DNA of 64,000 bases from Escherichia coli (GCF_030013595.1 NZ_CP122768.1); one strand, 5' to 3'. Positions 9,042 through 51,524 are shown, counted from the stretch's first letter. Notes: generated by a model not told the origin, from the letters alone. Numbers and translations are program-made.

Positions 9042-10427
9042 TTATACATCCGCCGGATCGATACCGTATTCCTGCAGTTTATACATCAATGCACGGCGAC
9101 TGATGCCCAGCATTAAAGCAGTGCGGGTTCGGTTTCCTTCTTGTTGTTCCAGCACTTCCATAATGATGCGTTTTTCGACGCGTTTAATTTCCTCTTTTAA
9201 ATTACGCTCACCGACAGGGGCTGTTTTTGCCTCACCAGCATTACAGACTGGCTGACGAATCTGTGGCGGAAGATCCTCAGAAAAAATGATCGGGCCTGAG
9301 TTCATCACGACGGCGCGTTCAATAACGTTGGAAAGCTCTCGAATATTTCCCGGCCATGACCAGGCGGTAAGCAGTGACATTGCCATCGGATCGATGTCGA
9401 TAATATCGCGCTGATTCTCACTACTGAATTTTTGCAAAAAGTGATTAGCTAACAGGGAAATATCTTCCCGGCGATCGCGCAGAGGCGGCAGTATTAAATG
9501 AATAACGTTAAGGCGATAAAAGAGATCTTCACGGAAGGTGCCTTCTTTTACCATTGCCTGCAAGTCACGGTTGGTGGCAGCAATGATGCGGATATCAACT
9601 TTTATGGTCTGATGGCCGCCAATCCGTTCAAATTCCCGTTCCTGCAGAATGCGTAGTAATTTGGCTTGCAGTACGAGCGGCATTTCGCCAATTTCGTCGA
9701 GGAGCAGAGTACCTTCGTTGGCACGTTCAAATAATCCCTGACGCAAGGTTTGTGCACCAGTAAATGCACCTTTTTCATGACCAAACAGTTCACTTTCGAG
9801 CAACGATTCCGGCAGCGCCGCGCAGTTGACTTTAATGAACGGCCCCTTTGCCCGCCGCGAATTGTAGTGAATCGCTCTGGCAATCAACTCTTTCCCGGTG
9901 CCGCTTTCACCGCTAATCAAGACGCTGGCCTGAGAAAGGGCAATTTTGGCGGTGTCTTTGCAGATGTCCATCATCGCCGGGCTGTTGGTGAGAATGTGCC
10001 CCCATTGCCAGCTGGTGCTCAGTGCCTGGTGCAGATGGCGGATCTCTTTTTTCATTGACTGGAGTTGTAAAGCGCGCTGAACGATTAAATTCAACTCATC
10101 GAGATCAAACGGTTTGATAACATAGTCGAAGGCTCCGCAGCGTAGCGCTTCGACGGCGTTTTCCACTTCAGCATAGGCCGTCATCAGAATAACGGGTGTC
10201 CGGGTCTCATTACTGCGCATCTCCTTGAGTGCCTTGATGCCGTCCATCTCTGGCATGCGGATATCCATCAACACCACGTCAGGGTGAATATCAGCAAACA
10301 GGTGTAATGCTGTGCGTCCGTTGTTCGCACAATGTGTTTCGAAACCTTGTAGTGCAAAAGCGGTGCTCAGCATACGGCGAACATTATCTTCATCATCCAC
10401 AATAAGGATGCGATTAATAGCAGTCAT
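9042..10427 (-). CDS. atoC: sigma54-dependent response regulator AtoC
   Basis: 461 aa with a receiver domain (DDEDNV...D), an AAA+ sigma54-interaction domain (GESGTGKE, GAFTGA) and a C-terminal Fis-type HTH. Confidence 0.95.
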   Translation of the reverse strand: MTAINRILIVDDEDNVRRMLSTAFALQGFETHCANNGRTALHLFADIHPDVVLMDIRMPEMDGIKALKEMRSNETRTPVILMTAYAEVENAVEALRCGAFDYVIKPFDLDELNLIVQRALQLQSMKKEIRHLHQALSTSWQWGHILTNSPAMMDICKDTAKIALSQASVLISGESGTGKELIARAIHYNSRRAKGPFIKVNCAALPESLLESELFGHEKGAFTGAQTLRQGLFERANEGTLLLDEIGEMPLVLQAKLLRILQEREFERIGGHQTIKVDIRIIAATNRDLQAMVKEGTFREDLFYRLNVIHLILPPLRDRREDISLLANHFLQKFSSENQRDIIDIDPMAMSLLTAWSWPGNIRELSNVIERAVVMNSGPIIFSEDLPPQIRQPVCNAGEAKTAPVGERNLKEEIKRVEKRIIMEVLEQQEGNRTRTALMLGISRRALMYKLQEYGIDPADV

Positions 10428-12250
10428 ACAGTCTGATTTCCCTGCGGGTTGATCGGTAAAATAAGGGTGAAGGTTGCGCCGTAGCCCGGCAAACTGGCGA
10501 CGCGAATATCACCCTGATGGGCATTAATGATGCGTTGACTTAACGCCAGACCAAGCCCGGTTCCTGAGGCTTTGGTGGTGAAAAAGGGATCGAAGATCTT
10601 TTTTTGCAGCGAGAGATCAATGCCACAGCCGTTGTCCTCTATCGAAATGGCCTGTTGTGAGTCGCTGTATTGCCAGGTTTGAATGCGAATTTTCCCTCGT
10701 GCGCTGATAGCCTGGACGGCATTGATCAGGATATTCAGTAGTACCTGTTTGAGCAGTTCACGATCGGCGTTAATCGGGTTTAATTCATTATCCAGTTCGC
10801 TTATGAAGTCGACCCGCGCTTGTACGCCGGCGGTTTGTACCAGTACCAGAGTTTCTTCAACCAATGCATTGAGACTGACTTGTTGCCATTGACTGTGGCG
10901 TGGACGTGAAAATTCGAGCAATTGCTGAATAACTTTGTTAATTGAATCGATTTCTTTGAGTACTACGGACAGATATTCCTGATGTATTAGGTCGCTGGTT
11001 TGTTGGCGCAAGATCTGTACATAACCACGAATAGCCGTTAGCGGATTACGTACTTCATGCGCGACGCCAGCCATCAGCTCACCCAGTGTAGCGAGGCGTT
11101 CTGCTTGCGCCATGCGGCGCTGGGTTTCTTTGCGGGCAGTTAAATCAGAGAAAATCACCAAAGCACCTATCATTTCACCATGCGTGTTATGAATACGACT
11201 GGTAGTGACACTGAGTTCAATGGTGCGGTCACGGCCTGGAAAACTGATCTCCAGCGCCACATGTTCGGTGCCATGTTCCAGCGTATCCAGTACGGGACTG
11301 TAGAACTGAGTATTGTCGAATAACATGGAGTAAGGCTGCCCTACCAGTTCATGACGTTGATAGCCAGTGATGACTTCTGCTGCCGGGTTCATGGTGGTTA
11401 CATCACCCTGGCGGTCAATGGCAATGACGCCATCGGCAGCGTTTTCAATAATCAGATCGTTAAGTGTCCGCGTTTCACGCAGTGCCTGGGCGAGGTTGTT
11501 AACACTCTGACTGATTTGCCCCATTTCACCGGGCAATTGTGGTAATCGAGTGGGAATATTTTGCGCCAGAGTCGAGAGGCCATCGGTGATGATATCAATA
11601 TTGGCGCTCAGGCGACGGGAGAAAAGGACAATCAACAGCAGGCTTATCAGCAAACCGGCGGTGAGCACAATGATAATCCTCACATCCATTTTCCAGGCCT
11701 GGCGGCGAATATCTTCGGTTAATTCATTGGCCCAGATATAGCCGAGGATTTCACCATTACGCTCAATGGGGATCATTGAATTCAAAATATCGCCGCGCAC
11801 CTGCCTGCCTGAATAAACCAAAGGGGTATTTGTACGCATGACTTCGCGACCAGGATGATCTGCGGCAATGGTAACGCCGACATTATTTTGATATAGCGCT
11901 GAAGGCGCGTAGGTGATTATCGCATCCAGCGTTTTGTTGTAATAACCAGCGCCGATGCCAGGGAAGGCGTGAGTGATATTTTCGGTAATGGGGGCAAGTT
12001 CTGCATTTAATGCGCGGATACGCTCCTCACGTGGTAAGTCGATGTAGAGATCATAGCGATCGCCTAGTGCCTGATTAAGCAGGTTGACCACGGCAGAAAG
12101 TTTTTTCTCTTTTTCAGATAAGACTGCTGAACGTCCTTCCGTTTCTACGATATAACCAATAGTAAGCGTTGGGACAATGACCATCAGGATTGCCATCAGG
12201 ATCATTTGATTGCGTAAGCGGCGTGGATAAATCCACTTCATATAATGCAT
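10424..12250 (-). CDS. atoS: sensor histidine kinase AtoS
   Basis: Carries HAMP and PAS domains, an H-box (AGVAHEVRNPL) and an HATPase domain. I placed the start at MHYMKWIYP (608 aa) rather than the first Met of the ORF track. It overlaps atoC by 4 nt. Confidence 0.9.
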   Translation of the reverse strand: MHYMKWIYPRRLRNQMILMAILMVIVPTLTIGYIVETEGRSAVLSEKEKKLSAVVNLLNQALGDRYDLYIDLPREERIRALNAELAPITENITHAFPGIGAGYYNKTLDAIITYAPSALYQNNVGVTIAADHPGREVMRTNTPLVYSGRQVRGDILNSMIPIERNGEILGYIWANELTEDIRRQAWKMDVRIIIVLTAGLLISLLLIVLFSRRLSANIDIITDGLSTLAQNIPTRLPQLPGEMGQISQSVNNLAQALRETRTLNDLIIENAADGVIAIDRQGDVTTMNPAAEVITGYQRHELVGQPYSMLFDNTQFYSPVLDTLEHGTEHVALEISFPGRDRTIELSVTTSRIHNTHGEMIGALVIFSDLTARKETQRRMAQAERLATLGELMAGVAHEVRNPLTAIRGYVQILRQQTSDLIHQEYLSVVLKEIDSINKVIQQLLEFSRPRHSQWQQVSLNALVEETLVLVQTAGVQARVDFISELDNELNPINADRELLKQVLLNILINAVQAISARGKIRIQTWQYSDSQQAISIEDNGCGIDLSLQKKIFDPFFTTKASGTGLGLALSQRIINAHQGDIRVASLPGYGATFTLILPINPQGNQTV

Positions 12251-41281: not shown

Positions 41282-43873
41282 ATGCATCAATCTGGTTCTG
41301 TTTCTCTTTGTCGTTCCGCAATATCTGTTCTGGTGGCTACAGCGTTATATTCACCCATAGCATTGGCATCAACAGTTGAGTATGGTGAGACAGTTGATGG
41401 TGTTGTCCTGGAAAAAGATATCCAGCTGGTTTATGGGACCGCCAATAATACGAAAATCAATCCTGGCGGAGAACAGCATATAAAAGAATTTGGTGTAAGT
41501 AGTAATACTGAAATTAACGGAGGGTATCAGTACATTGAAATGAATGGCACCGCAGAATACTCAGTATTAAATGACGGTTATCAAATTGTTCAAATGGGTG
41601 GCGCGGCAAACCAGACTACCCTCAATAATGGTGTGCTACAGGTTTATGGCGCAGCGAATGATACTACCATTAAAGGCGGGCGCTTAATTATTGAAAAAGA
41701 TGGGATTACCGTCTTTGCCGCTATCGAAAAGGGAGGATTACTGGAGGTTAAAGAGGGGGGATTAGCATTTGCGGTAGATCAGAAAGCAGGCGGTGCGATT
41801 AAAACAACCACGCGGGCCATGGAGGTATTCGGAACAAACCGTCTCGGTCAGTTCGATATCAAGGATGGTATTGCTAATAATATGCTGTTGGAAAACGGCG
41901 GAAGTTTGCGAGTTGAAGAAAATGACTTCGCTTATAATACCACTGTGGATAGTGGCGGCTTACTGGAGGTTATGGATGGCGGGACTGCAACTGGCGTTGA
42001 TAAAAAAGCAGGCGGAAAATTAATTGTCTCAACGAATGCGCTGGAAGTGAGTGGTACAAACAGTAAAGGCCAATTTAGTATAAAAGATGGTGTGTCAAAA
42101 AATTATGAACTGGATGATGGTTCCGGGCTCATTGTTATGGAGGACACGCAGGCCATTGATACTATCCTTGATGAGCATGCCACTATGCAATCGCTGGGAA
42201 AGGATACTGGTACGAGAGTGCAGGCAAATGCGGTATATGATCTCGGTCGATCAGATCAGAATGGAAGTATCACGTATTCCTCTAAAGCCATCTCTGAAAA
42301 TATGGTTATCAACAATGGCCGCGCTAATGTCTGGGCTGGCACAATGGTTAACGTTTCAGTCAGAGGGAATGATGGCATTCTTGAGGTCATGAAGCCGCAA
42401 ATAAATTATGCACCCGCTATGTTGGTGGGTAAGGTAGTGGTTTCTGAGGGCGCTTCTTTTAGAACGCATGGTGCCGTGGATACCAGCAAAGCGGATGTTT
42501 CGCTCGAAAATAGCGCATGGACCATCATTGCCGATATCACTACGACGAACCAAAACACTCGCCTCAACTTAGCCAACCTTGCGATGTCTGGCGCAAATGT
42601 GATTATGATGGCTGAGCCAGTGACTCGTTCATCTGTGACGGCAAGTGCGGAAAATTTCACTACGTTGACCACCAATACCCTATCGGGAAACGGCAATTTT
42701 TATATGCGTACTGATATGGCTAATCATCAGAGCGATCAGCTCAACGTGACCGGTCAGGCAACAGGTGATTTCAAAATATTTGTGACGGACACAGGGGCCA
42801 GCCCGGCAGCAGGTGATAGCCTTACACTGGTAACAACGGGCGGCGGTGATGCTGCATTTACGTTGGGCAATGCCGGAGGCGTTGTTGATATCGGTACGTA
42901 TGAATATACCTTGCTGGATAATGGCAACCATAGCTGGAGTCTGGCAGAGAATCGCGCGCAAATTACCCCTTCAACCACTGATGTGCTGAATATGGCGGCA
43001 GCACAACCGCTGGTATTTGATGCAGAACTGGACACCGTGCGTGAGCGTCTTGGTAGCGTAAAAGGCGTTAGTTACGATACGGCGATGTGGAGTTCGGCAA
43101 TTAACACCCGCAACAACGTGACCACTGATGCGGGAGCTGGCTTTGAGCAAACATTGACGGGCCTGACGCTCGGTATCGATAGCCGTTTCTCCCGTGAAGA
43201 AAGCAGTACAATTCGCGGCTTGTTCTTTGGTTACTCTCATTCTGATATTGGTTTTGATCGCGGCGGCAAAGGCAATGTCGATAGCTATACCCTGGGGGCT
43301 TATGCCGGTTGGGAGCATCAGAACGGTGCCTATGTTGATGGGGTGGTGAAAGTTGACCGTTTTGCCAACACCATCCATGGCAAGATGAGTAATGGGGCAA
43401 CAGCGTTTGGCGATTACAATAGTAACGGCGCGGGTGCTCATGTCGAGAGCGGGTTCCGTTGGGTTGACGGATTGTGGAGTGTTAGACCTTATCTGGCCTT
43501 TACCGGCTTTACCACAGATGGTCAGGACTACACGTTATCAAACGGCATGCGTGCGGATGTGGGAAATACCCACATATTACGCGCTGAAGCGGGAACGGCG
43601 GTAAGCTATCACATGGACCTGCAAAACGGTACGACGCTGGAACCCTGGCTGAAAGCCGCCGTACGTCAGGAATACGCCGATTCTAACCAGGTGAAAGTTA
43701 ATGACGATGGCAAATTTAATAATGATGTGGCTGGAACCCGTGGCGTTTATCAGGCTGGGATAAGGTCATCGTTTACCCCGACGTTAAGCGGTCATTTGTC
43801 TGTCAGCTATGGCAATGGCGCAGGGGTAGAATCACCGTGGAATACTCAGGCGGGTGTGGTCTGGTCGTTCTGA
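41282..43873 (+). CDS. yejO: AIDA-type autotransporter adhesin-like protein YejO (uninterrupted)
   Basis: 863 aa with a signal-like N-terminus, Gly/Asn-rich beta-helix repeats and a C-terminal beta-barrel ending ...GVVWSF. Its position next to narP and proL supports the call. Confidence 0.85.
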   Translation: MHQSGSVSLCRSAISVLVATALYSPIALASTVEYGETVDGVVLEKDIQLVYGTANNTKINPGGEQHIKEFGVSSNTEINGGYQYIEMNGTAEYSVLNDGYQIVQMGGAANQTTLNNGVLQVYGAANDTTIKGGRLIIEKDGITVFAAIEKGGLLEVKEGGLAFAVDQKAGGAIKTTTRAMEVFGTNRLGQFDIKDGIANNMLLENGGSLRVEENDFAYNTTVDSGGLLEVMDGGTATGVDKKAGGKLIVSTNALEVSGTNSKGQFSIKDGVSKNYELDDGSGLIVMEDTQAIDTILDEHATMQSLGKDTGTRVQANAVYDLGRSDQNGSITYSSKAISENMVINNGRANVWAGTMVNVSVRGNDGILEVMKPQINYAPAMLVGKVVVSEGASFRTHGAVDTSKADVSLENSAWTIIADITTTNQNTRLNLANLAMSGANVIMMAEPVTRSSVTASAENFTTLTTNTLSGNGNFYMRTDMANHQSDQLNVTGQATGDFKIFVTDTGASPAAGDSLTLVTTGGGDAAFTLGNAGGVVDIGTYEYTLLDNGNHSWSLAENRAQITPSTTDVLNMAAAQPLVFDAELDTVRERLGSVKGVSYDTAMWSSAINTRNNVTTDAGAGFEQTLTGLTLGIDSRFSREESSTIRGLFFGYSHSDIGFDRGGKGNVDSYTLGAYAGWEHQNGAYVDGVVKVDRFANTIHGKMSNGATAFGDYNSNGAGAHVESGFRWVDGLWSVRPYLAFTGFTTDGQDYTLSNGMRADVGNTHILRAEAGTAVSYHMDLQNGTTLEPWLKAAVRQEYADSNQVKVNDDGKFNNDVAGTRGVYQAGIRSSFTPTLSGHLSVSYGNGAGVESPWNTQAGVVWSF

Positions 43874-43933
43874 TAACAGACAATAAACAGGCCGTGATGT
43901 GTCGCGGTCTGTTTATCGAATTAAATGCAGATA

Positions 43934-43966
43934 TAAAAAAACCAACCTTTACGGTTGGTTTTTTTG
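43934..43966 (-). terminator. hairpin terminator, probably the ancestral proL terminator now separated from proL by the island
   Basis: AAAAAAACCAACC-tttac-GGTTGGTTTTTTT sits immediately outside the distal island junction. Read on the minus strand it is a canonical stem followed by a T-run. Confidence 0.6.
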
Positions 43967-43972
43967 GGATTT

Positions 43973-43995
43973 TTGGTCACGAGAGTATTCAAAAC
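43973..43995. repeat. distal att remnant (degenerate copy of the proL 3' end)
   Basis: TTGGTC---ACGAGAGTATTCAAAAC here compares with TTGGTCGGCACGAGAGGATTTGAACC at 54171-54196. GATTT(TT)GGTC is shared at both junctions. Confidence 0.6.
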
Positions 43996-44046
43996 ACGCC
44001 AATAACCTCTTGATTCAATTGAAGTCGAAAATTTTAAGTCAAAAAT

Positions 44047-44072
44047 CGTATAGCTTAACGTGTAGCTAAAAA
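44047..44072. repeat. 26-nt direct repeat (candidate integrase arm-type site), distal copy
   Basis: CGTATAGCTTAACGTGTAGCTAAAAA differs by 1 nt from CGTATAGCTAAACGTGTAGCTAAAAA at 54028-54053. Confidence 0.6.
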
Positions 44073-44622
44073 TGTTTGCTGCAAAAGTATACAATTTTAA
44101 CCGTTATGACTCCCTGTTATCCGTTATCAAGCTGGTGGATGATCATGGATAACCCGTTATGGGAATCCCCATATCGGCATCAGGCCCATGCCATAACAAA
44201 AACCCCATATTCGTGGGTTTTCTGTGTTGTGGCTATTCTGCCGTTGCCGTGCTGGTGGATATTTCCGGTATGTGGCTCACCATATCGGCATCACGCCCAC
44301 CAGCGCGACGCATTTTTTTAATTTCGCGGGTGTAAAAATTTGACGGGGCGGGCGGTCCTATAAGCAATGGGGGGTAGGGATTTCGATCCCCCCTCCTGAA
44401 TGCAATTTTCCGTATGTGGCTGTGCGGCAATCATACTCGTCACATGTTTTTGACAATAAAAGGCCCGACCGTGAGACTCACAAACAAAAAAGTTACGGAG
44501 AAACAGGGGATCGGGCTCGGTTGCCGCTAAATCTATTCAATTAAAAGAAGATGTCAATAGGGAAAACGAAAAAAAACAATGCTGATATTGTCATAATTTG
44601 AACAAAACCACTATATGTAGTT

Positions 44623-44853
44623 TTAGTTCATGAGGTTAGTCGCTACCAGATGCGTCAATAGTTTTTTGCTATTAATAATCCCTCTTTTTCCATCGGGAGC
44701 TTTGCACTTGTCACTACCTGGTAACTCCTGGTGGCGTTCCTGTTGCAGCACAACGGAAACAGGCGCTGAACACCTGTTAATTTTGCTTGCAGGTTGTTTG
44801 ATTTCGGCAATGCTGCGGATCATCTCCAGCATATCGGCTTCGGTGATGGTCAT
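44623..44853 (-). CDS. hypothetical small protein (76 aa)
   Basis: The ORF is preceded by an AAGGTG Shine-Dalgarno 6 nt from the ATG. I recognise no family, and it lies in an otherwise ORF-poor region. Confidence 0.35.
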   Translation of the reverse strand: MTITEADMLEMIRSIAEIKQPASKINRCSAPVSVVLQQERHQELPGSDKCKAPDGKRGIINSKKLLTHLVATNLMN

Positions 44854-44884
44854 GATTTACACCTTAGGAAATCTTAGGGGCTGG

Positions 44885-45142
44885 TTGACACTTTCCGGCT
44901 TAAGACCTTAACAAATCTTAACATCGCAGGTTGACACACTTGACACTTTTTCGCGAAAAACCTTATCAAACCTTAGCATTTCTAAGCATGGCAACTTGAC
45001 ACTTTTCGCGATTTTTTCGGCTTTTTGACGTGGTAAATCTGGCGCAAAGCCAGTAACGGCGGGGTTTACAGCGAGGTTGACACTTTTTCGCGTTCAGAGT
45101 GTAAAGTGTCAACCTGGCAAGCTGCTCAACTTGACACTTTTT
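44885..45142. repeat. iteron array TTGACACTTT(TT)CGCG (at least 6 direct copies plus 1 inverted)
   Basis: Copies start at 44885, 44931, 44940, 44996, 45077 and 45131, with one inverted copy at 45103-45112. They are interspersed with CCTTA(G/A/T) repeats and lie between the Nu1-like gene and the 76-aa ORF. Confidence 0.8.
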
Positions 45143-45146
45143 GAGG

Positions 45147-45674
45147 TCATTGATGGCCTGATTTTTCCCACTCAGCCAGGGCGTTTAGTCCGGCTTCACT
45201 CCAGTTATCCAGCTCATCGGGACAATCACCTGCAACATAGCAGAGCTCACAACGCAGCATACGAATTGCCAGCCTGGCATTTTCCCGAAAATCATACTGC
45301 TCAAAGTAATATTGCCCAGCATAATCCTCAAGGCAGATAGCACCATCATCAAGAAATTGCACTTCACAGCATAGTTCCCCGGCTGCATCCTGTACACGCT
45401 GCTGTATGTCATTGTCCGTTACTGGTGCAGGGATTTTACCGTCTCTGGCCTTAACTGCTTTCCAGAACTCGCCCCACGTCATTTCCAGCGTTCTCTCTGG
45501 CCACATTTCAGAAACGGTATCTTTTCCCTGTGCTGGTGGGCTGTTCCGCTGCTCTGTCGCTTCCACATCGATTTTTTTACCGGACATGACCACTTCGCCT
45601 TTCTCGATCCAGTCGTAAACTGTCTGGCGGCTTACGCCTTTGTGTTTGGCATATTCTGCCTTGCTCATAAACAT
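45147..45674 (-). CDS. protein with a lambda Nu1 (small terminase)-like N-terminal HTH; candidate packaging-specificity factor
   Basis: 175 aa. The N-terminus SKAEYAKHKGVSRQTVYDWIEKGEV resembles lambda Nu1 NKKQLADIFGASIRTIQNWQEQGMPV. The rest is unrecognised and Cys-rich. A good Shine-Dalgarno (GAGGGGAAG) precedes the start. Confidence 0.55.
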   Translation of the reverse strand: MFMSKAEYAKHKGVSRQTVYDWIEKGEVVMSGKKIDVEATEQRNSPPAQGKDTVSEMWPERTLEMTWGEFWKAVKARDGKIPAPVTDNDIQQRVQDAAGELCCEVQFLDDGAICLEDYAGQYYFEQYDFRENARLAIRMLRCELCYVAGDCPDELDNWSEAGLNALAEWEKSGHQ

Positions 45675-45844
45675 GACACTTCCCCTCAGACTGTATTAAT
45701 GCGCCGGAAAGCGCGTGTATTTAAATCATCCCAGGAACCGTTGAGCACCAATTAGTTGCGCGAAGTAATCGGCACCAGCGTTCCGAACAATTTCCAACTT
45801 AACGTTCTGATCATTGTTTCCTGCTGCAGGGACAATCCCACGAT

Positions 45845-46498
45845 TCATAGCCAGCGCCCGGATATTTCTTCCAGTTTTTCCAGAGCTGGCTTGCAGGCCG
45901 CATCAATAACTTCACGGACCATTCCGGCGAGCTGTTCTTCTTCTGTCGGCGTTGTTACTTCCACACCTGATGGTTTCCCGCCCTTATCCCATACGCCCAA
46001 CGGTACGAGCGCAACGTGATCGATAAGAAATGGCGTACCCTCAATGAAAAAATTGTCCTCGCCCATTACATCAGGAACTTCTGCCCCACCGGACGCACCA
46101 CAAAACACAACCGACGGGCTGGTGGATACCTCCCCCCGTGCTTTCTGGATGTAATCGATGATTTCCTGCCCGTAAATCCGGCATACGCCCCACACCTCGT
46201 CACCGCGAATATACGGCAACATGACGGTGCCAATAATGCGCGACCGTTCGCCCACGTCTTCAAGGGTTTTGCTTTCGGGATGGTCGATAATGACGGGTAC
46301 TCCGGCGCAACGTTCCAGGAACTGCGGATTGAGATAAGTTTGCGGTGAACGCCAGACAAATTCTTTTTCTTCGGCGCGATAGGCCATTCCGGTTCCTGTG
46401 ATACGCAGGTTAATCAGCCACATGTTGGAAAACTGATAAGGCGACGGTAGCTGACCGTCCCGAATCTGCTTTGCCGCCTCAATTTCTGTTAAAAGCAT
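45845..46498 (-). CDS. DUF2213-like protein (phage scaffold/prohead-protease-like family)
   Basis: 217 aa. The motifs GVPVIIDHPES, IGTV and IDHVALVPLGVWDKGG follow the pattern I remember for DUF2213. This has not been verified by HMM. Confidence 0.5.
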   Translation of the reverse strand: MLLTEIEAAKQIRDGQLPSPYQFSNMWLINLRITGTGMAYRAEEKEFVWRSPQTYLNPQFLERCAGVPVIIDHPESKTLEDVGERSRIIGTVMLPYIRGDEVWGVCRIYGQEIIDYIQKARGEVSTSPSVVFCGASGGAEVPDVMGEDNFFIEGTPFLIDHVALVPLGVWDKGGKPSGVEVTTPTEEEQLAGMVREVIDAACKPALEKLEEISGRWL

Positions 46499-46562
46499 AA
46501 TGTCCCCCGGTTATAAGCAATAAGCCCCACCAAATCCGGCAGGGCTGAAATCAGCACGTTTT

Positions 46563-47147
46563 TCATGCCCCCGCGAGGCTTGCAACGTTAATTTTAACCA
46601 GGCGACGGGGAGGGATTTTGAAAGCACTAAGCCAGTTATTCGGATCCCCCTGATATTCAGTAATCCGCCGTCCGGCTTCATCCATTCTTACGGTTTTACG
46701 CAAATAGCCCGGCGTATTTTCCACAGCCCACTGAACACTGTCTTTTGCAGCCTGGTAAATCTGATCTTCCAGCACCGCCAGCGTTGCAGAATCTGAAACG
46801 GAACGAATATCCACATCACTGAATTTTTTAGCCAGCTTCTGTGCACCAATTAATGCACGCTTGCGGTAATCCATCGACTTTTCACCAGCAAACGGGGCTG
46901 GAGCGCGACGGCCCATATTGCTGTATGCGGAATCCGCTTTAGCCTGGGCTTCTGCCAGTGAGGATTCATCTTCGACTGACGCGACGATGTTTTTATTCGC
47001 GTCATCCTCGTCCGCTTTTGTGAAATCCTGTGCGGGGATCGCATTCAGAATTTCGATAATCTCCTGCGGAGTGCTGCCCTGCGACTCTGACAGAGCGTTA
47101 ACCACCTCCATCAGTTTTAATCGCAAATCTTCTTTGCTTGCTGGCAT
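46563..47147 (-). CDS. hypothetical protein (194 aa) with an acidic N-terminal half
   Basis: The ORF has a GAGAGG Shine-Dalgarno before the ATG at 47147; the ORF track begins 9 nt earlier at a GTG. I recognise no family. It lies immediately upstream of the DUF2213-like gene. Confidence 0.5.
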   Translation of the reverse strand: MPASKEDLRLKLMEVVNALSESQGSTPQEIIEILNAIPAQDFTKADEDDANKNIVASVEDESSLAEAQAKADSAYSNMGRRAPAPFAGEKSMDYRKRALIGAQKLAKKFSDVDIRSVSDSATLAVLEDQIYQAAKDSVQWAVENTPGYLRKTVRMDEAGRRITEYQGDPNNWLSAFKIPPRRLVKINVASLAGA

Positions 47148-47186
47148 TTTTACCACCTCTCTTTTTTCACCAAAAAATCACGACCA

Positions 47187-47360
47187 TCAGGCCGGACGTT
47201 CTACGGGATAAAGCGCCCGCTGCATTAAACGCCGGGCGACCTCATGAATGCTCGGAGCAATCCCCAGCGGAGAATTGCGGCGTTCCTCGTCCTGGATGCG
47301 CTGTAATGCTTCAATCTGATCACGAGCGAGTAAAACGGGTTTCACGCTGGCTTTTCTCAT
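47187..47360 (-). CDS. hypothetical small protein (57 aa)
   Basis: An AGGAG Shine-Dalgarno lies 8 nt before the ATG at 47360; alternative ATGs are at 47366 and 47384. It is the first ORF after the tandem terminators. Confidence 0.45.
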   Translation of the reverse strand: MRKASVKPVLLARDQIEALQRIQDEERRNSPLGIAPSIHEVARRLMQRALYPVERPA

Positions 47361-47486
47361 AGTCATATCTCCTGAACAAAACAATGATTATGATTGCACA
47401 AACTGAAATAACGATCTACATCATTGCAATTTATGAAACAATAACGCATGATGATCGCGTTCTTCCCATTGACTTCAATCACCTGA

Positions 47487-47525
47487 AAAACAAAGCCCGC
47501 AACACTTCTGGCTGCGGGTTTTTTA
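47487..47525. terminator. hairpin with T-runs on both strands
   Basis: A CCCGCA-N11-TGCGGG hairpin is followed by TTTTTT on the plus strand and by TTTGTTTTT on the minus strand. Confidence 0.55.
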
Positions 47526-47531
47526 CTGGCA

Positions 47532-47557
47532 CAAAAAAGCCGGGAAAAATCCCGGCC
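47532..47557 (-). terminator. rho-independent terminator after the PerC-like gene
   Basis: The minus strand reads GCCGGGA-tttt-TCCCGGC followed by TTTTTT, 5 nt after the stop codon. Confidence 0.75.
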
Positions 47558-47561
47558 TCCG

Positions 47562-47849
47562 TCACTGACTGCAATTTTTCGATCCAGGGTATTTCCTGAA
47601 TGCCTTACCATTGGGCTGATGTAATCCCATCCCGGCATGTGCCCGGCTGATGGTTTCGCGCATTTCCCCGAAATTATCCTGCCTTGCTGGTGGGCGTGCT
47701 GCCTTGCGGATACATTCCGCGCGACGTTTTGCCGCCTGTTCCCGTGCCTTGTCATCATTCGCCAGCATGATGACCTCAGCCCACCGCGCCGCCGCTCTCC
47801 GGTACAGACCACGCGCTTCCAGTGCTTCCGCTTTGCTGTCGTGAATCAT
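47562..47849 (-). CDS. PerC/Pch-like transcriptional regulator
   Basis: 95 aa. The N-terminal AEALEARGLYRRAAARWAEV matches the PerC-family signature as I recall it. Its start overlaps the upstream gene's stop by 4 nt. Confidence 0.55.
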   Translation of the reverse strand: MIHDSKAEALEARGLYRRAAARWAEVIMLANDDKAREQAAKRRAECIRKAARPPARQDNFGEMRETISRAHAGMGLHQPNGKAFRKYPGSKNCSQ

Positions 47850-48388
47850 GCGCCTGTTTTCTCCTTTGCTGCCCGGCGCTGACGTTTGCGCTTCTCATTC
47901 AGCGCCACCAGCCGCGTTTCTGCGTCCTGTTGTTCCTGTGGTGTCACCTCGCCGCACGGCTGGCCTTTCAGGTCGTAGCGTACCCCACCAGCCATTAAGG
48001 CGCGGTAATAGCGCGGACACTGCGCATAAGATGCCAGCGTCGCACGCAATGCCCCTGGACCGAATGCCAGCCCCCTGACGGCGAGATCCTGCATCAGGTC
48101 GTCGAATATCCCCACCTTAAGCGGCTTCGGTGCTTCCCGGCTGAATAATTCAGGCCACAACTCAGTGAGGCGGTTAACGCGCCTGCGGTTTTTGCGCTGG
48201 CGTTTGGTCATATGCCGCCACGGTGTCGCCCCTGTGGGCTTCTGCTGCGCTTTCTGGTTACCGGGCATCACTTTATGCGCCGATGTGGTTTTATCCTGCT
48301 CCTGCGCCGCCTGCGTCGTTTTCTGCGGCGTGCCGTAAATGCCTTTCGGTTTTCTGTTAATGGTCAGCTTAGTCATGCTTTGCCCCAT
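47846..48388 (-). CDS. FinO/ProQ-domain RNA-binding protein
   Basis: 180 aa. KPLKVGIFDDL ... LRATLASYAQCPRYYRAL..GGVRYDLKGQPCGEV aligns with E. coli ProQ RPLKIGIFQDL ... [35 protein letters not shown]. Both the N- and C-terminal tails are basic. Confidence 0.8.
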   Translation of the reverse strand: MGQSMTKLTINRKPKGIYGTPQKTTQAAQEQDKTTSAHKVMPGNQKAQQKPTGATPWRHMTKRQRKNRRRVNRLTELWPELFSREAPKPLKVGIFDDLMQDLAVRGLAFGPGALRATLASYAQCPRYYRALMAGGVRYDLKGQPCGEVTPQEQQDAETRLVALNEKRKRQRRAAKEKTGA

Positions 48389-48537
48389 CGTTTTTACTGG
48401 TTGCTACGTTGCCCAACGGCACTGACACAACATTCTGTTTTCATTTTTAACATTCCTGATTTTTTAATTCCTCACCTGCTGCACAGTGAAAATTTATGAA
48501 GTTAATAACAATATGATTTTAAATGTATTTTTAAGTA

Positions 48538-48856
48538 CTCACTTTTTAATCCTTATATATACGCAAAAGTGAGGTAAATAGTTAAGTTTTAGTTAATATC
48601 TTGCATGGTGTGTTTTTTAACCTACCTGTTATTTTTATTACCTCATTTCTATTAACTCACCATTCCTCACTTTTGTTCCTCACTTTTTATTATTCTTGTT
48701 CTGCTCCTCAGTCGTTTTCTTTATTGTTGTAATCTGTTGTTTTGCAATGTGTTTTTAACTCCTCACTTTTTGACCTATATACAGGTGAGAAAGTGAGGAG
48801 TGGCGTTGATTTTTTGTTAAATTACCCGCCATCCTCACTTTTGCTCCTCACTTTTT
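48538..48856. repeat. iteron array CCTCACTTTT(T) in AT-rich DNA: candidate island replication origin
   Basis: Direct copies lie at 48538, 48665, 48678, 48761, 48833 and 48846. Inverted copies lie at 48565-48574 and 48789-48800, and there are degenerate copies as well. The array is immediately downstream of the helicase gene. Confidence 0.75.
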
Positions 48857-50270
48857 ACAGTGGGCGCACATAATCACCGTCAATAGCGATTACGCCGTCG
48901 CTTTCCAGCTTGTACAGCCAGCGCCGGAAGTGTTTCATCTCATACCCCAGCTTTTTCATATCATCGCGGAGAAGGGCGATAGTGCACGCCTCCCCGTGTG
49001 CTGTTCGCGTTCTGATGCACTGCCATAGCGCAGCGTGATTTTCCGTCTTGTTCCCGGCCTCCTCGATGCGTTCCAGTTCAACAGGTGGGCGCGGCTTATC
49101 CACAACCACCAGCGACGTGATTAACTCCCCGTCAGTGTCGGTAAAAAGCTCCACCACGCGTAAATCATATGCAGCCTCTTTCAGTTCCTCCGCGTCCTTC
49201 ATTTTGGTGCAGGAGATAACCAGGGCTTCACTGTCCGCACCTTCACGGCGAATACGGTATTCAGCGTCCAGAGATGCACGAAATGCACTGGAACCACGCG
49301 CCCCTTTTGTTTCATCCTTGCCGGAATGGTGAACCACCAGTACCGTGGCCCCTGTGCGTCGTTTCAGTTCGTCACATCCACGGATAAACGCCCCCATATC
49401 CCGCGCGTCATTTTCATCATTACCGCCAAAGCAACGCGCCAGCGTATCCAGAATAATCATGCGTACCGGTTTACCCGTTTCCCGTTCAACCTGACGGGAA
49501 GCGATGACCATTTCATCAACATCAAGCGGGACCGCCGGAAAAATCGGGCGGTTTACCAGGTACAGATTTTTCACCCGTTCATCATTAACGATTTCCCATG
49601 CTTTGATACGACGAGGAACACCGATCCCGCCCTCACCAACGACATACATAACCGCACCATGTACAACCCTGCGACCTCCCCAGTGGCGACCAGTGGCAAC
49701 ATGACACGCCCAGGAACACGCGAGGAACGATTTATAGGAACCGCTCGCGCCGTATGTGCTGCACAACGAATTAGCCGGAATCACGCCCTTAACGACATAA
49801 TCAAGCTGTGTGTCGTATCCTGCAGATCCAATACTCATTGGTAGCGTGGTTTTTCGCTGGCTGTATTGCTCGTCAGTAAGTATTTCCCCGCGCTCTGCCT
49901 GTTCGCGGATCCGTTGCAGGTAGTCGTGCCAGTTCTCCAGCTTCTGGCTGTGCATTCCCTCAGGGTAATAATTCGCATCCCGTACACCTGCCGCCGCCAG
50001 TTTTTGCCCGATGGCATTAATATTTGACGGCTTGATGTGGCCTGCCTTGTACAGCCGGACACAATAGCGACCATCGTCGATAATTTTCAGGTCTGCCAGT
50101 TCGTCAAGCTGGCTGTCTCCCAGCCATACAGGCGGAACATTGTCGCCAGCAAGTCGCCCGTCCTGTTCCTGCCATTGTTTCGCGTGCGCCCAGGCATCAC
50201 TACCCGCAAAAATAATGACTTCGGTCATTTTGTCGTGTGGCTGTTTTTTTAAGTTCGGTGCCAGTTTCAT
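48855..50270 (-). CDS. RepA/AAA_25-type replicative helicase-like initiator
   Basis: 471 aa with a RecA-fold core: Walker A-like GASGSYKS, Walker B MIILD and an HHSGK motif. The C-terminus is wHTH-like. It is translationally coupled to the upstream ORF. Confidence 0.7.
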   Translation of the reverse strand: MKLAPNLKKQPHDKMTEVIIFAGSDAWAHAKQWQEQDGRLAGDNVPPVWLGDSQLDELADLKIIDDGRYCVRLYKAGHIKPSNINAIGQKLAAAGVRDANYYPEGMHSQKLENWHDYLQRIREQAERGEILTDEQYSQRKTTLPMSIGSAGYDTQLDYVVKGVIPANSLCSTYGASGSYKSFLACSWACHVATGRHWGGRRVVHGAVMYVVGEGGIGVPRRIKAWEIVNDERVKNLYLVNRPIFPAVPLDVDEMVIASRQVERETGKPVRMIILDTLARCFGGNDENDARDMGAFIRGCDELKRRTGATVLVVHHSGKDETKGARGSSAFRASLDAEYRIRREGADSEALVISCTKMKDAEELKEAAYDLRVVELFTDTDGELITSLVVVDKPRPPVELERIEEAGNKTENHAALWQCIRTRTAHGEACTIALLRDDMKKLGYEMKHFRRWLYKLESDGVIAIDGDYVRPL

Positions 50271-50566
50271 TTTGTGCCCCTGAATGCGTTAATCATGTTT
50301 TTCATTTTCTGAATATTTGCCCGTGCCTTTGCGTTGCTGGTGGGCTGTTTGCGTGGTGTGGCCTGTATCAGTGAAAAATCACGCCGGAACTGATAAACAG
50401 GCATCACGCAGTCGTAGCTGTACCCATCACGGCGGTAAGTAACGCACCGTCCGGCAATACTTTTAATCGTTACCGTGCCGCCGTAGTTATCCCGGAAAAT
50501 ATCGCCGGGGCGGATTTCAGGCCGAGGGAGACCACTGGCAGTAAAGCCAGAATTTTTCTTTTTCAT
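50267..50566 (-). CDS. hypothetical protein (99 aa)
   Basis: The ORF overlaps the rep start by 4 nt. I could not confidently recognise a family. Confidence 0.5.
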   Translation of the reverse strand: MKKKNSGFTASGLPRPEIRPGDIFRDNYGGTVTIKSIAGRCVTYRRDGYSYDCVMPVYQFRRDFSLIQATPRKQPTSNAKARANIQKMKNMINAFRGTK

Positions 50567-50570
50567 GGTT

Positions 50571-50771
50571 TTATTTTCCTGTCAGCAGTTCCGGTTTTAT
50601 TTCCGCACGAATACAGAGTTCAGAAAAAAATTCAGGAGAACCAACAATCTCATTACTTTTCAGTCGGCATTGTGATTTCACTTTCCCTTTATCCAGGTAA
50701 ACCAGTATGCGTCCGGTGAAATCATCTGGCACACTCAGGGTAATTGTCATTGTTGCTTGCTGATTATCCAT
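50571..50771 (-). CDS. hypothetical protein carrying one copy of the FTG(R/Q) module (66 aa)
   Basis: It shares the pattern FTGRILVYLDKGKV...VGSPEFFSEL with both halves of the upstream 121-aa protein. Confidence 0.5.
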   Translation of the reverse strand: MDNQQATMTITLSVPDDFTGRILVYLDKGKVKSQCRLKSNEIVGSPEFFSELCIRAEIKPELLTGK

Positions 50772-51129
50772 GATTCACCCCCTGAATAACCTGATAACCG
50801 CAACTGGTCAGCAATTCGATAAATTCCGGCAGTGTTCCGAAACAGCAATCATCTCGCAGCCGTTCTCGGGATACTTCAACGCCGTTTTCGTAGTGACTCA
50901 CCATGCGTCCGGTAAAATGCAGATCATCATCGTGATGGCTCGTTAACGGCTTAATCAGTCGCGCACGTTCTGCCAGCTCCAGCAATGCTTCAACGCTTCC
51001 GGCAATTGCACCATCCGGCAGGTGATAATTACTTGCCACGCGTCCATTCTCCACGTTAACCAGTAGCTGCCCGGTGAATTTCTCATCAAACTGAATGCTG
51101 TTAAGGTCAGAAATTGACAGGTTAATCAT
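50764..51129 (-). CDS. hypothetical protein carrying two tandem copies of the FTG(R/Q) module (121 aa)
   Basis: Internal duplication: FTGQLLVNVENGRV...AGSVEALLEL and FTGRMVSHYENGVEV...FGTLPEFIEL. It overlaps both neighbouring genes by 8 nt. Confidence 0.55.
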   Translation of the reverse strand: MINLSISDLNSIQFDEKFTGQLLVNVENGRVASNYHLPDGAIAGSVEALLELAERARLIKPLTSHHDDDLHFTGRMVSHYENGVEVSRERLRDDCCFGTLPEFIELLTSCGYQVIQGVNHG

Positions 51130-51325
51130 GGCGTACCTCCTGGCGAATACGGGCAGCGAATACCATCACGCAGCCATCAGGAGATTGCTGACGCGCTTCC
51201 TGTTCGCTGGTGGCCTCAATGGTAATCACGCGCGGTTGTGCCGTGCTCAGGGCGATAAAACGCCAGATGTATTTATTCAGGTTGTGCGAGTCCCGCCCTT
51301 GCGGGTGTGTGGTATGATTTCTCAT
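51122..51325 (-). CDS. Icd-like small protein (67 aa)
   Basis: This is the 3' third of the 286-aa ORF-track entry, starting at MRNHTTHPQGRDSH. The segment YIWRFIALS...IEATSEQEARQQSP.GCVMVFAARIRQE resembles proteins annotated as host cell division inhibitor Icd-like in satellite islands. That match is from memory only. Confidence 0.5.
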   Translation of the reverse strand: MRNHTTHPQGRDSHNLNKYIWRFIALSTAQPRVITIEATSEQEARQQSPDGCVMVFAARIRQEVRHD

Positions 51326-51422
51326 AGCTACCTCGATACTCTTTCTATCGTTGGTGGTTAGAAGCCCCGTTACTGCTCCAACAGTGCGGGGTTTCGTCGT
51401 TTCTGTGCCTTGCATTAACAAG

Positions 51423-51504
51423 GTGTAAGACACAATGTAAAATACAAGTGTCTTACACGTCAAGCCTTCAAAATAATTTTTTTTCGTGTATATTGTCTTA
51501 CACC
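51423..51504. promoter_or_regulatory. operator-like repeats in the divergent control region
   Basis: GTGTAAGACAC (51423-51433) and its exact inverted copy GTGTCTTACAC (51448-51458) are joined by a third copy, GTCTTACACC (51495-51504). They lie between the Icd-like operon and the plus-strand RHH-like gene. Confidence 0.6.
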
Positions 51505-51524
51505 AACAACATAAGGAGTTAGAC

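What the first reader, a model, noticed from the sequence alone, without database searches (positions are those of the whole stretch)
47846..48388. FinO/ProQ-domain RNA chaperone homolog encoded next to the island origin
The central ~100 residues align convincingly with the N-terminal FinO domain of E. coli ProQ: KPLKVGIFDDL versus RPLKIGIFQDL, and RYDLKGQPCGEV versus RVDLDGNPCGEL. The domain is flanked by Lys/Arg/Gln-rich tails.

FinO-domain proteins act on specific structured RNAs (FinP, RepX, RocR, many ProQ ligands). A satellite-borne copy placed between ori and the late module implies RNA-based control of island replication, late gene expression or helper interference. I know of no defined RNA partner for this element.
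Basis: partly seen in the sequence, partly recalled or inferred. Interest (0 to 1): 0.65.

Follow-up and report, generated by a model that had tools for sequence, protein, structure and literature searches.

The report
FinO-type RNA-binding gene on phage satellite
The gene really encodes a FinO/ProQ-type RNA-binding protein. It sits on a 10-kb E. coli phage satellite (PICI), databases already label it, it is an optional add-on gene, and no partner RNA could be found.

Summary
The ORF at 47846-48376(-) hits Pfam PF04352 (E=8e-24, 84 bits against a cut-off of 27). Its AlphaFold model matches only FinO-domain structures. The residues that bind the RNA 3' end (G89, Y123, R133) are conserved.

The gene lies in a 9.98-kb Gram-negative PICI beside tRNA-Pro. 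It is directly downstream of the iteron origin, overlaps a PerC-family gene, and is followed by tandem terminators and the packaging module.

It is neither FinO proper nor ProQ, because both NCBIfam models score below their cut-offs. It belongs to a tight clade found on enterobacterial islands. RefSeq already names it 'ProQ/FINO family protein'. A 2026 Enterobacter survey lists such a gene in a PICI without assigning a function.

It is accessory. Only 8 of 69 RgdR-bearing satellite loci carry it. It swaps with PerC at the same slot. No other gene and no non-coding sequence is inherited with it.

No partner RNA was identified. The candidates are its own operon's terminators, the antisense ylcI transcript and a hairpin at the rgdR start, and the last occurs whether or not FinO is present.

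Verdict: a new member of a known kind. Interest is moderate.

The parts
47846..48376 (-). Residues 1-51 are a disordered basic/Gln/Thr-rich tail. Residues 52-73 form a basic helix (PWRHMTKRQRKNRRRVNRL). Residues 85-145 are the FinO core with a beta-hairpin. Residues 146-175 form a long basic C-terminal helix.
   Evidence: Pfam PF04352 84 bits; PDB sequence hits; AlphaFold and Foldseek; RefSeq WP_063102546.1 'ProQ/FINO family protein'.
47562..47849 (-). PerC-family small regulator gene. Its ATG overlaps the FinO stop codon (ATGA), so the two are probably translationally coupled.
   Evidence: Pfam PF06069 E=2e-32; ORF coordinates.
47486..47556 (-). Tandem intrinsic terminators that end the early operon. 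T_a: hairpin 47556-47539 plus U-tract 47538-47533. T_b: hairpin 47518-47496 plus tail to 47486. T_b also reads as a weaker terminator on the + strand.
   Evidence: fold z-score -3.8. A terminator at this position is found in most related loci, including the FinO-less Sp7.
48389..48857 (.). Island replication origin: an AT-rich stretch with direct and inverted CCTCACTTT/AAAGTGAGG iterons.
   Evidence: The position immediately 3' of the initiator gene is as described for PICIs in PMC6092414.
48855..50270 (-). RepA-type helicase/initiator (AAA_25).
   Evidence: Pfam PF13481 E=2e-44; phrog_2850.
50267..50566 (-). RgdR-family (DUF4222) gene that overlaps the rep start by 4 nt. A conserved CUGGC-N6-GCCAG hairpin lies at codons 6-11.
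   Evidence: Pfam PF13973; homology to ECs1581/RgdR; hairpin survey.
51122..51300 (-). Icd-like small gene, the first gene of the early operon. A promoter-like site lies at 51463-51434(-).
   Evidence: NCBIfam NF033153 on the C-terminal 48 residues of ORF 51122-51982; promoter scan.
51525..51955 (+). The island's only opposite-strand transcription unit. It comprises ylcI/ynfO (51525-51704) and two strong terminators (about 51804-51831 and 51928-51955). It converges on alpA, so alpA read-through would be antisense to it.
   Evidence: NCBIfam NF041551; promoter 51415-51443(+), 10 of 12 matches; folds with z -2.8 and -4.8.
51987..52193 (-). AlpA-family activator gene.
   Evidence: Pfam PF05930.
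52721..53962 (-). Tyrosine integrase.
   Evidence: Pfam PF00589 and others; NCBIfam PRK09692 560 bits.
45147..47384 (-). Late/packaging module: a small ORF 47187-47384, phrog_6216-related genes 46563-47156 and 45845-46498 (DUF2213, protease-like), and a TerS/HTH-like gene 45147-45674.
44047..44072 (.). attR copy of the 26-nt direct repeat. The partner copy lies at 54028-54053, about 120 nt from tRNA-Pro(ggg) at 54172-54248. The island is about 9.98 kb.

Best explanation
Shown here:
- The gene encodes a genuine FinO-domain protein with FinO-like architecture: a basic N-terminal extension and helix, the FinO core, and a basic C-terminal helix, with no ProQ-type C-terminal domain.
- It lies in a Gram-negative phage-inducible chromosomal island (PICI).
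- It is the second-to-last gene of the one-directional early/replication operon: icd-like, rgdR, rep, ori, finO, perC, then tandem terminators.

Inferred from the family:
- Like RocC, FinO and ProQ, the protein should clamp the base of a terminator-type hairpin and bury the 3'-OH end of its U-tail in the conserved Gly/Tyr/Arg pocket. That would protect the RNA and, through the basic helices, help it pair.
- It has no room for a promoter of its own in most loci, so it should be made only after AlpA-driven induction, during helper phage growth.

Inferred, low confidence:
- It travels as a lone cassette with no co-inherited RNA gene. Its ligands are therefore probably terminator-ended transcripts that any such island makes.
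- First candidate: the tandem-terminator 3' end of its own finO-perC message. Binding there would stabilise the message and raise FinO and PerC at the switch from early to late genes.
- Second candidate: the terminator of the antisense ylcI transcript, which opposes read-through from alpA.

My estimates: about 0.9 that it is a terminator-binding RNA protein, about 0.3 that its main ligands are island-encoded.
For: - Domain, fold and residues. ProQ K35, R58, Y64, Y70 and R80 map to K87, R111, Y117, Y123 and R133. These positions and G89 are invariant or nearly so in 18 and 58 homologues. The roles of the equivalent RocC residues G52, R75, Y87 and R97 are described in PMC9674577.
- FinO-like architecture: the NCBIfam FinO model aligns residues 35-176 to FinO positions 46-179. 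The AlphaFold model has helices at 58-73 and 146-175.
- Operon position: all island genes except ylcI are on one strand. In most loci only about 36 nt separate ssb from finO.
- Terminators: sites directly after the pair (z -3.8), with a terminator at the same position in most related loci.
- Antisense unit: promoter and strong terminators.
- Lone cassette.
Against: - No RNA ligand was observed, and nothing here measures binding.
- A terminator after the slot also exists in the FinO-less Sp7/OI-51, so it is not specific to FinO.
- The ylcI unit is absent from C4/IsrK-type islands that also carry FinO.
- The N-cap motif differs from characterised members. Gly106 replaces the usual Ser, and Pro107 replaces a Lys, so hairpin recognition may differ.
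- Presence in only about 12% of related satellites shows it is dispensable for the basic satellite cycle.
Confidence: 0.5

Rival explanations
1. The protein acts on RNAs of the helper phage or the host. It would be expressed during induction and bind terminator-ended RNAs of the helper phage (for example antisense or short leader RNAs of lambdoid phages) or host ProQ/Hfq-class sRNAs and 3' UTRs. It would compete with or mimic host ProQ, to bias helper development or host physiology in the satellite's favour.
For: It is a lone accessory cassette with no partner inherited in cis. It occupies the same swap slot as PerC, whose PICI homologues have been reported to affect host virulence genes. The 3'-end pocket is conserved and generic. 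The clade also occurs in non-PICI islands alongside YagK/YfjJ and DUF3987 genes. The N-terminal tail varies or is missing in some members.
Against: There is no direct evidence. No helper phage is in the window to examine. Characterised FinO-family proteins encoded on mobile elements (FinO, FopA, PcnR) mostly act on their own element, although Salmonella FinO also regulates a co-resident plasmid through RepX (PMC9977716).
Confidence: 0.25
2. The protein controls replication copy number, as FopA and PcnR do. It would bind the conserved stem-loop at codons 6-11 of the rgdR leader gene, or an antisense RNA ending there. That would repress translation of rgdR and of the coupled rep gene, giving negative feedback on island replication.
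For: rgdR overlaps rep by 4 nt. A 5-bp GC-rich hairpin lies right after the rgdR start in 30 of 33 distinct sequences. It keeps three four-fold-degenerate sites fixed, and Salmonella loci have a different hairpin at the same place. PcnR binds a stem-loop in the leader ORF repR (PMC8053102). FopA acts with the Inc RNA on the repZ mRNA.
Against: The hairpin is present in dozens of FinO-less satellites and is disrupted in one FinO-positive locus, L045. The antisense-strand fold is not significant (z -0.86), and no antisense promoter was found. Related FinO genes accompany three unrelated initiator types. In strain cq9 an identical finO-perC block sits beside only a 408-nt RepA pseudogene, with a primase-family gene upstream.
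Confidence: 0.12
3. The protein gates the terminators in front of the late genes. It would bind the nascent T_a/T_b terminator RNA and, with PerC, alter termination or read-through into the packaging module.
For: Tandem terminators lie exactly between perC and the late module. The downstream late-promoter region has poor -35 elements and conserved TGCAAT repeats, which suggests it depends on an activator.
Against: No FinO-family protein is known to act on termination. FinO-less islands have the same terminator layout. FinO-domain binding requires a free 3'-OH, so it would occur after termination.
Confidence: 0.08
4. The gene is a decaying or hitch-hiking passenger with no current role, or a protein that binds DNA rather than RNA.
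For: It is optional among satellites. This island's late module appears reduced compared with L031. The gene often neighbours ssb.
Against: The reading frame is intact and the clade keeps conserved functional residues across 55-98% identity. The gene is widespread: 329 genomes have a match covering at least 80% of it. The RNA 3'-end pocket is conserved.
Confidence: 0.05

Closest known systems
FinO of F-like plasmids (FinOP fertility inhibition)
   Same: It shares the FinO domain and a similar size (176 aa against 186). It has a basic, partly disordered N-terminal extension leading into a long helix, and a basic C-terminal helix. It is encoded at the distal end of the long operon it could feed back on. 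It is carried by a mobile element. The NCBIfam FinO model aligns across residues 35-176, and 1dvo is a structural match.
   Different: It scores 64.6 bits against the model's cut-off of 136. It is chromosomal and PICI-borne, not plasmid-borne: all 1634 DNA matches in E. coli genomes are on chromosomes, and PLSDB plasmid matches are below 60% identity apart from two records, the better one a 4.8-Mb sequence. No FinP-like RNA was found. No tra genes are present.
ProQ (enterobacterial global RNA chaperone)
   Same: It is the best PDB sequence match to the FinO domain (5nb9, E=6e-12). The KPLKxGIF and RxDLxGxPCGE motifs are shared, as are Y70 and R80.
   Different: It scores 57.8 bits against a cut-off of 127. 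It has no linker and no Tudor-like C-terminal domain. It carries an N-terminal extension instead. It is accessory and island-encoded.
FopA (IncI1 pCol1B9) and PcnR (IncI2)
   Same: They are FinO-domain proteins of mobile replicons that act near the replication genes. The PcnR precedent, a stem-loop in a leader ORF coupled to rep, resembles the rgdR-rep layout.
   Different: No Inc-like antisense RNA was found. The rgdR hairpin is not linked to FinO presence.
RocC of Legionella bound to the RocR terminator (7rgu)
   Same: It is among the best structural matches (TM-score 0.77-0.84). The 3'-nucleotide pocket residues (RocC G52, Y87, R97) and R75 are conserved as G89, Y123, R133 and R111.
   Different: The N-cap Ser70 and Lys71 equivalents are Gly106 and Pro107, with Ala109 at the Lys73 position. 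RocC has a long C-terminal region and a trans-acting sRNA partner.
ProQ/FinO gene noted in an Enterobacter cloacae PICI (Viruses 2026, PMC13612085)
   Same: It is the same kind of element and carries the same annotation. That survey groups perC and proQ together as accessory 'host-interaction' genes.
   Different: That report is annotation only. No sequence comparison with it was made here.

Membership tests
ProQ/FinO domain family (PF04352) | Profile HMM match above the curated threshold | tested here: met
   84.1 bits against a gathering score of 27; E=8.2e-24; profile positions 5-108 of 109.
ProQ/FinO domain family (PF04352) | FinO fold (helical core with a beta-hairpin) | tested here: met
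   AlphaFold pLDDT about 90 over residues 52-175. The top 26 Foldseek PDB hits are all FinO-domain structures, with TM-score up to 0.84.
ProQ/FinO domain family (PF04352) | 3'-nucleotide pocket residues (RocC G52/Y87/R97 = ProQ G37/Y70/R80) | tested here: met
   G89, Y123 and R133 are invariant in 18 sequences and at least 90% conserved in 58. Their roles are described in PMC9674577.
ProQ/FinO domain family (PF04352) | Helical N-cap motif (Ser cap plus Lys/Arg; RocC S70, K71, K73, R75) | tested here: inconclusive
   R111 is kept. The cap residue is Gly106 (invariant in 18 sequences, at least 90% conserved in 58). The Lys71 position holds P, S, Q, A or T, and the Lys73 position is Ala109 here.
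ProQ/FinO domain family (PF04352) | Binds structured RNA with a 3' tail | not testable with these tools
   Needs gel-shift, CLIP or RIP experiments.
FinO proper (NCBIfam NF010317) | Score above the family cut-off | tested here: not met
   64.6 bits against 136.
FinO proper (NCBIfam NF010317) | Cognate FinP-type cis-antisense RNA and an F-like tra operon context | tested here: not met
   No Rfam hit other than the tRNA reaches its family's gathering score, and FinP is not among the weak matches up to E=1 in 43500-54800. The context is a PICI, not a plasmid.
ProQ equivalog (NCBIfam NF003434) | Score above the cut-off, plus a linker and C-terminal Tudor-like domain | tested here: not met
   57.8 bits against 127. 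The protein ends after the FinO-domain helix at residue 176.
FopA/PcnR-type replication controllers | A rep-leader RNA target (antisense RNA or leader stem-loop) functionally tied to the protein | tested here: inconclusive
   A leader hairpin exists at the rgdR start, but it occurs in 30 of 33 distinct starts regardless of FinO. The antisense fold is not significant.
Gram-negative PICI (phage-inducible chromosomal island) | int, alpA and an initiator with an iteron origin immediately 3' of it; one-directional transcription; att repeats; about 10 kb; no tail or lysis genes | tested here: met
   The criteria are from PMC6092414.
Gram-negative PICI (phage-inducible chromosomal island) | Induction and mobilisation by a helper phage | not testable with these tools
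   Needs experiments.

The most novel reading that the evidence does not exclude
Phage satellites of enterobacteria carry their own FinO-class RNA chaperone as a mobile weapon. It would be made only during helper growth. It would capture terminator-ended regulatory RNAs of the helper phage, or displace host ProQ from them, to re-time helper development or the satellite's own early-to-late switch. That would be a new, post-transcriptional layer of conflict between satellite and helper.
Probability: 0.12. Interest if true: 0.7.

Novelty: new member of a known kind. Interest (0 to 1): 0.4.

Why it matters
All characterised FinO-family proteins on mobile elements (FinO, FopA, PcnR) tune their element's spread or copy number through RNA. 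None has been studied on a phage satellite. This clade is common: a close relative is present in 329 of 5426 complete E. coli genomes, and partial DNA matches occur in 1158. It occupies a fixed slot between the replication and packaging genes of both classical and capsid-forming PICIs. The PICI papers consulted do not mention it.

If it has a specific RNA ligand, that would reveal post-transcriptional control in the biology of satellites and their helpers. It would also add a natural test case for how FinO domains choose their RNAs, because its N-cap motif is unusual. If it has no specific ligand, it is one more accessory gene.

Tried and rejected
1. Known RNA families. An Rfam E-value scan of the island gave only the tRNA and sub-threshold noise. 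C4 and IsrK RNAs occur in some FinO-bearing islands (L004, L027, L032) but not in this one or most others, so they are not a general partner.

2. An antisense RNA inside or beside finO. No promoter-like site lies in 47000-48800. The + strand 'terminators' at 48168-48184 and 48327-48343 are weak 5-bp stems within coding sequence.

3. Synonymous-site conservation. It is somewhat reduced over codons 12-40. The nucleotide alignment shows this reflects close relatedness among a subset of sequences, not a constraint held in distant members.

4. An antisense terminator over the rgdR start codon. The fold z-score is -0.86. The U-run is not conserved, for example in L046 and L049.

5. The sense-strand rgdR hairpin as a ligand specific to FinO. 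It is real and conserved but shows no association with FinO.

6. Co-inherited partners. No ORF cluster is associated with FinO by Fisher tests. No 12-mer outside the FinO ORF is shared by at least 60% of 18 distinct FinO-positive loci while being rare in 62 FinO-negative loci.

7. FinO and PerC as an obligate pair. L046 and L047 have FinO without PerC. Sp7/OI-51 has PerC without FinO. Five of the 8 FinO-positive IMG/VR loci carry PerC.

8. Defence-system membership. PADLOC gave no hit.

9. Phage or plasmid origin. The closest phage hits are below 40% identity, and true plasmid hits are below 60%.

10. The genome-contig scan added only E. ruysiae and E. albertii islands, plus distant chromosomal homologues in Burkholderiales.

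Full report
**What is at the coordinates**

A minus-strand ORF ends at 47846. RefSeq uses 48376 (MTKLTIN..., 176 aa). Only that ATG is preceded by a GGGG/GGAG Shine-Dalgarno sequence that is conserved in homologous loci, whereas the upstream ATG is not conserved.

The protein matches Pfam PF04352 (ProQ/FinO) at E=8.2e-24 and 84.1 bits, against a gathering score of 27, over almost the whole profile. phmmer against PDB sequences finds only FinO-domain proteins: ProQ N-terminal domain 5nb9 (6e-12), FinO 1dvo (2e-10), NMB1681 and RocC.

An AlphaFold model built on 58 homologues is confident for residues 52-175 and disordered for residues 7-51. Its 26 best Foldseek matches in the PDB are all FinO-domain structures, including RocC bound to a terminator (TM-score up to 0.84, rmsd 2.2-2.4 A); the next hit has E>1.

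**Functional residues**

In the RocC-RocR terminator structure, G52, Y87 and R97 form the pocket that buries the 3'-terminal nucleotide. S70, K71, K73 and R75 form a helical N-cap that reads the hairpin phosphates (PMC9674577). Here the pocket equivalents G89, Y123 and R133 are conserved, as is R111. These correspond to ProQ G37, Y70, R80 and R58. They are invariant or nearly so across homologues of 55-98% identity.

The N-cap differs. The cap residue is Gly106 rather than Ser, the first Lys position holds Pro, Ser, Gln, Ala or Thr, and the second is Ala109 here. Binding of a hairpin with a free 3' tail is therefore expected, but hairpin recognition may be atypical.

**Which family member it is**

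It is neither FinO nor ProQ in the strict sense. The NCBIfam FinO model scores 64.6 bits (cut-off 136) and the ProQ equivalog model 57.8 bits (cut-off 127).

In architecture it resembles FinO. It has an N-terminal extension running into a basic helix (58-73) and a long basic C-terminal helix (146-175). It has no ProQ linker or Tudor-like domain.

A scan of 1.84 billion representative proteins finds 2214 family clusters at E<=1e-3 but only 8 at E<=1e-30. This is a small, tight clade inside a large family.

Close relatives come from Escherichia, Shigella, Salmonella and Citrobacter. None comes from sequenced phages, where the best hit is below 40% identity. True plasmids give matches below 60% identity. 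In complete E. coli genomes every match is chromosomal. Of 5426 genomes, 1158 have a DNA-detectable relative and 329 have one covering at least 80% of the gene. RefSeq already calls these genes 'ProQ/FINO family protein'.

**The element**

The window is E. coli chromosome. The finO region (47300-48900) is 100% identical to strain cq9, and the island as a whole is about 98.6% identical, over 89% of its length, to a porcine ETEC strain. A 26-nt direct repeat at 44047-44072 and 54028-54053 bounds a 9.98-kb island next to tRNA-Pro(ggg), between yejM and yejO.

Reading along the minus strand, the island contains:
- the integrase and AlpA genes;
- one opposite-strand unit, ylcI/ynfO, with its own promoter-like site and two strong terminators;
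- an Icd-like gene and two small ORFs;
- an RgdR-family (DUF4222) gene overlapping a RepA-type helicase gene;
- a 467-bp iteron origin;
- finO, then perC overlapping the finO stop;
- tandem intrinsic terminators;
- a small packaging module: phrog_6216-related and DUF2213 genes and a TerS/HTH-like gene.

This matches the published definition of Gram-negative PICIs: one-directional transcription, an AlpA activator induced by the helper, and an origin immediately 3' of the initiator (PMC6092414).

**Comparative context**

More than 20 islands from four genera share this order: rgdR, rep, origin, optional ssb, finO, perC or another small gene, a terminator, then the late or cargo module.
- The slot is the same with three unrelated initiator types: RepA/AAA_25, DUF927 and D5_N primase.
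- It is the same in classical PICIs and in capsid-forming PICIs.
- It is the same in islands whose late region is replaced by large cargo genes.
- In cq9 the finO-perC-ori block is identical to the window while the initiator module is different.

The gene is nevertheless optional. O157 Sakai Sp7/OI-51 has ssb, pchE (PerC) and gene X with no finO. Its relatives L046 and L047 have ssb, finO and gene X with no perC. The exchange boundaries lie in the ssb 3' end and just before the late-promoter region.

An unbiased sample was obtained by scanning IMG/VR with an RgdR alignment. Of 69 loci with at least 5 kb of downstream sequence, 8 carry finO. Roughly 30 carry perC, and 5 of the 8 finO loci also carry perC.

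A related subclade (64-68% identity) sits in non-PICI islands with YagK/YfjJ and DUF3987 genes.

**Search for the RNA partner**

No partner was identified. The lines of evidence were:
- Rfam finds nothing in the island apart from the tRNA. C4 and IsrK RNAs occur only in one island subtype.
- There are no promoter-like sites around finO, and the antisense 'terminators' inside it are weak.
- Tandem terminators follow perC (z -3.8). A terminator at this position recurs in most loci but also in the FinO-less Sp7.
- The ylcI transcript ends in strong terminators (z -2.8 and -4.8). By its geometry it would be antisense to alpA read-through. This unit is absent from the C4-type islands that also carry finO.
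- A GC-rich hairpin at codons 6-11 of rgdR is strikingly conserved, in 30 of 33 distinct starts. Three degenerate sites are fixed, and Salmonella has a different hairpin at the same place. It recalls PcnR binding a stem-loop in the leader ORF repR (PMC8053102). However, it is equally present in FinO-less satellites.
- No ORF cluster and no 12-mer outside the FinO ORF is inherited with finO.

finO therefore moves as a solitary cassette without a dedicated cis-encoded RNA.

**Most likely mechanism**

Domain, fold, pocket residues, operon position and terminators are shown. RNA binding of the terminator-hairpin/3'-tail kind is inferred from the family. Expression only during the induced cycle is inferred from the lack of space for a separate promoter: about 36 nt separate ssb from finO in most loci.

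The biological target is an open inference. I favour island transcripts that every such PICI produces. These are the operon's own 3' end, giving self-stabilisation and more PerC at the early-to-late transition, and the antisense ylcI RNA. My estimate for an island-encoded target is about 0.3.

The rivals, in order, are:
- helper or host RNAs (0.25);
- FopA/PcnR-like replication control at the rgdR-rep leader (0.12);
- terminator gating of the late genes (0.08);
- no current role, or DNA binding (0.05).

**Comparison with the literature, and novelty**

FinO (FinP/traJ), FopA (Inc/repZ), PcnR (repR stem-loop), RocC (RocR) and ProQ are the characterised members (PMC9977716, PMC7491321, PMC8053102, PMC9674577).

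The PICI literature discusses PerC and RgdR as 'virulence' regulators and does not mention FinO/ProQ. One 2026 survey lists a ProQ/FinO-like gene in an Enterobacter PICI without a function.

This is a new, unstudied member of a known kind, and it is already annotated.

Noticed in passing
window 50267-50566 (-); L049 4805-5104: The DUF4222 gene coupled to rep belongs to the RgdR family (99 aa, RPGD at residues 19-22). Its type member is ECs1581 of O157 Sakai Sp7/OI-51, a reported regulator of LEE and motility. A hairpin CUGGC-N6-GCCAG at codons 6-11 is kept in 30 of 33 distinct gene starts, with three degenerate sites fixed. It may be a translational control element for rgdR-rep.
   Followed up: partly
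window 44047-44072 and 54028-54053: The att repeats (26 nt, 1 mismatch) lie about 120 nt downstream of tRNA-Pro(ggg), not inside the tRNA. The strong hairpin at 54106-54139(-) between them looks like the tRNA's own terminator and lies outside the island.
   Followed up: partly
window 44913-45146: There are three copies of TTGACACTTTTT(CGCG), within longer 39-nt degenerate repeats, between the TerS/HTH-like gene and attR. They could be a cos or pac site, or binding sites for the TerS-like protein.
   Followed up: no
window 47385-47480 (-) compared with L031: The region between the terminators and the first late gene keeps TTGCAAT and GTGCAAT repeats and a CATAAT -10-like element. The spacers between them diverge between the window and a Citrobacter island. 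This looks like an activator-dependent late promoter, and PerC or the small ORF at 47187-47384 are candidate regulators.
   Followed up: no
window 51415-51463: Overlapping, back-to-back promoter-like sites lie between ylcI and the icd-like gene: + strand 51415-51443 (10 of 12 matches) and - strand 51463-51434 (9 of 12). The layout resembles a genetic switch between the antisense unit and the early operon.
   Followed up: no
window 45845-47156 (-): phrog_6216, a 545-position profile, matches two separate ORFs in permuted order: 46563-47156 matches profile 405-544, and 45845-46498 matches profile 115-315. Compared with the Citrobacter island L031, two genes (88 and 345 aa) are missing between the DUF2213 gene and the TerS-like gene. 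The late module here may be reduced.
   Followed up: no
L001 (E. coli cq9) 9556-12028: cq9 carries an identical finO-perC-ori block. Its RepA gene is a 408-nt pseudogene, and a D5_N-type primase gene lies upstream. This is a clear module-swap mosaic at the origin.
   Followed up: partly
L046/L047 6522-6782; L049 8670-8894: A conserved small protein of about 75-82 aa (MP.KF.E......) follows either finO or perC in capsid-forming PICIs. It was not searched against any protein-family library here and may be a third small regulator in the same slot.
   Followed up: no
L004/L027 about 3236-3424; L032 2791-2878: Some FinO-bearing PICIs carry Rfam C4 antisense RNA and IsrK elements upstream of icd, as in P1/P4-type RNA immunity. 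The window's island instead has the ylcI antisense unit at the equivalent place.
   Followed up: partly
L035-L037, L048 (downstream of finO): In a very common E. coli variant (P0047, indexed in about 4000 blocks of the contig collection), finO is followed by an unknown 120-138-aa gene, a frameshifted perC remnant and three very large genes (about 840, 600-690 and over 820 aa). This is probably cargo or a defence system.
   Followed up: no
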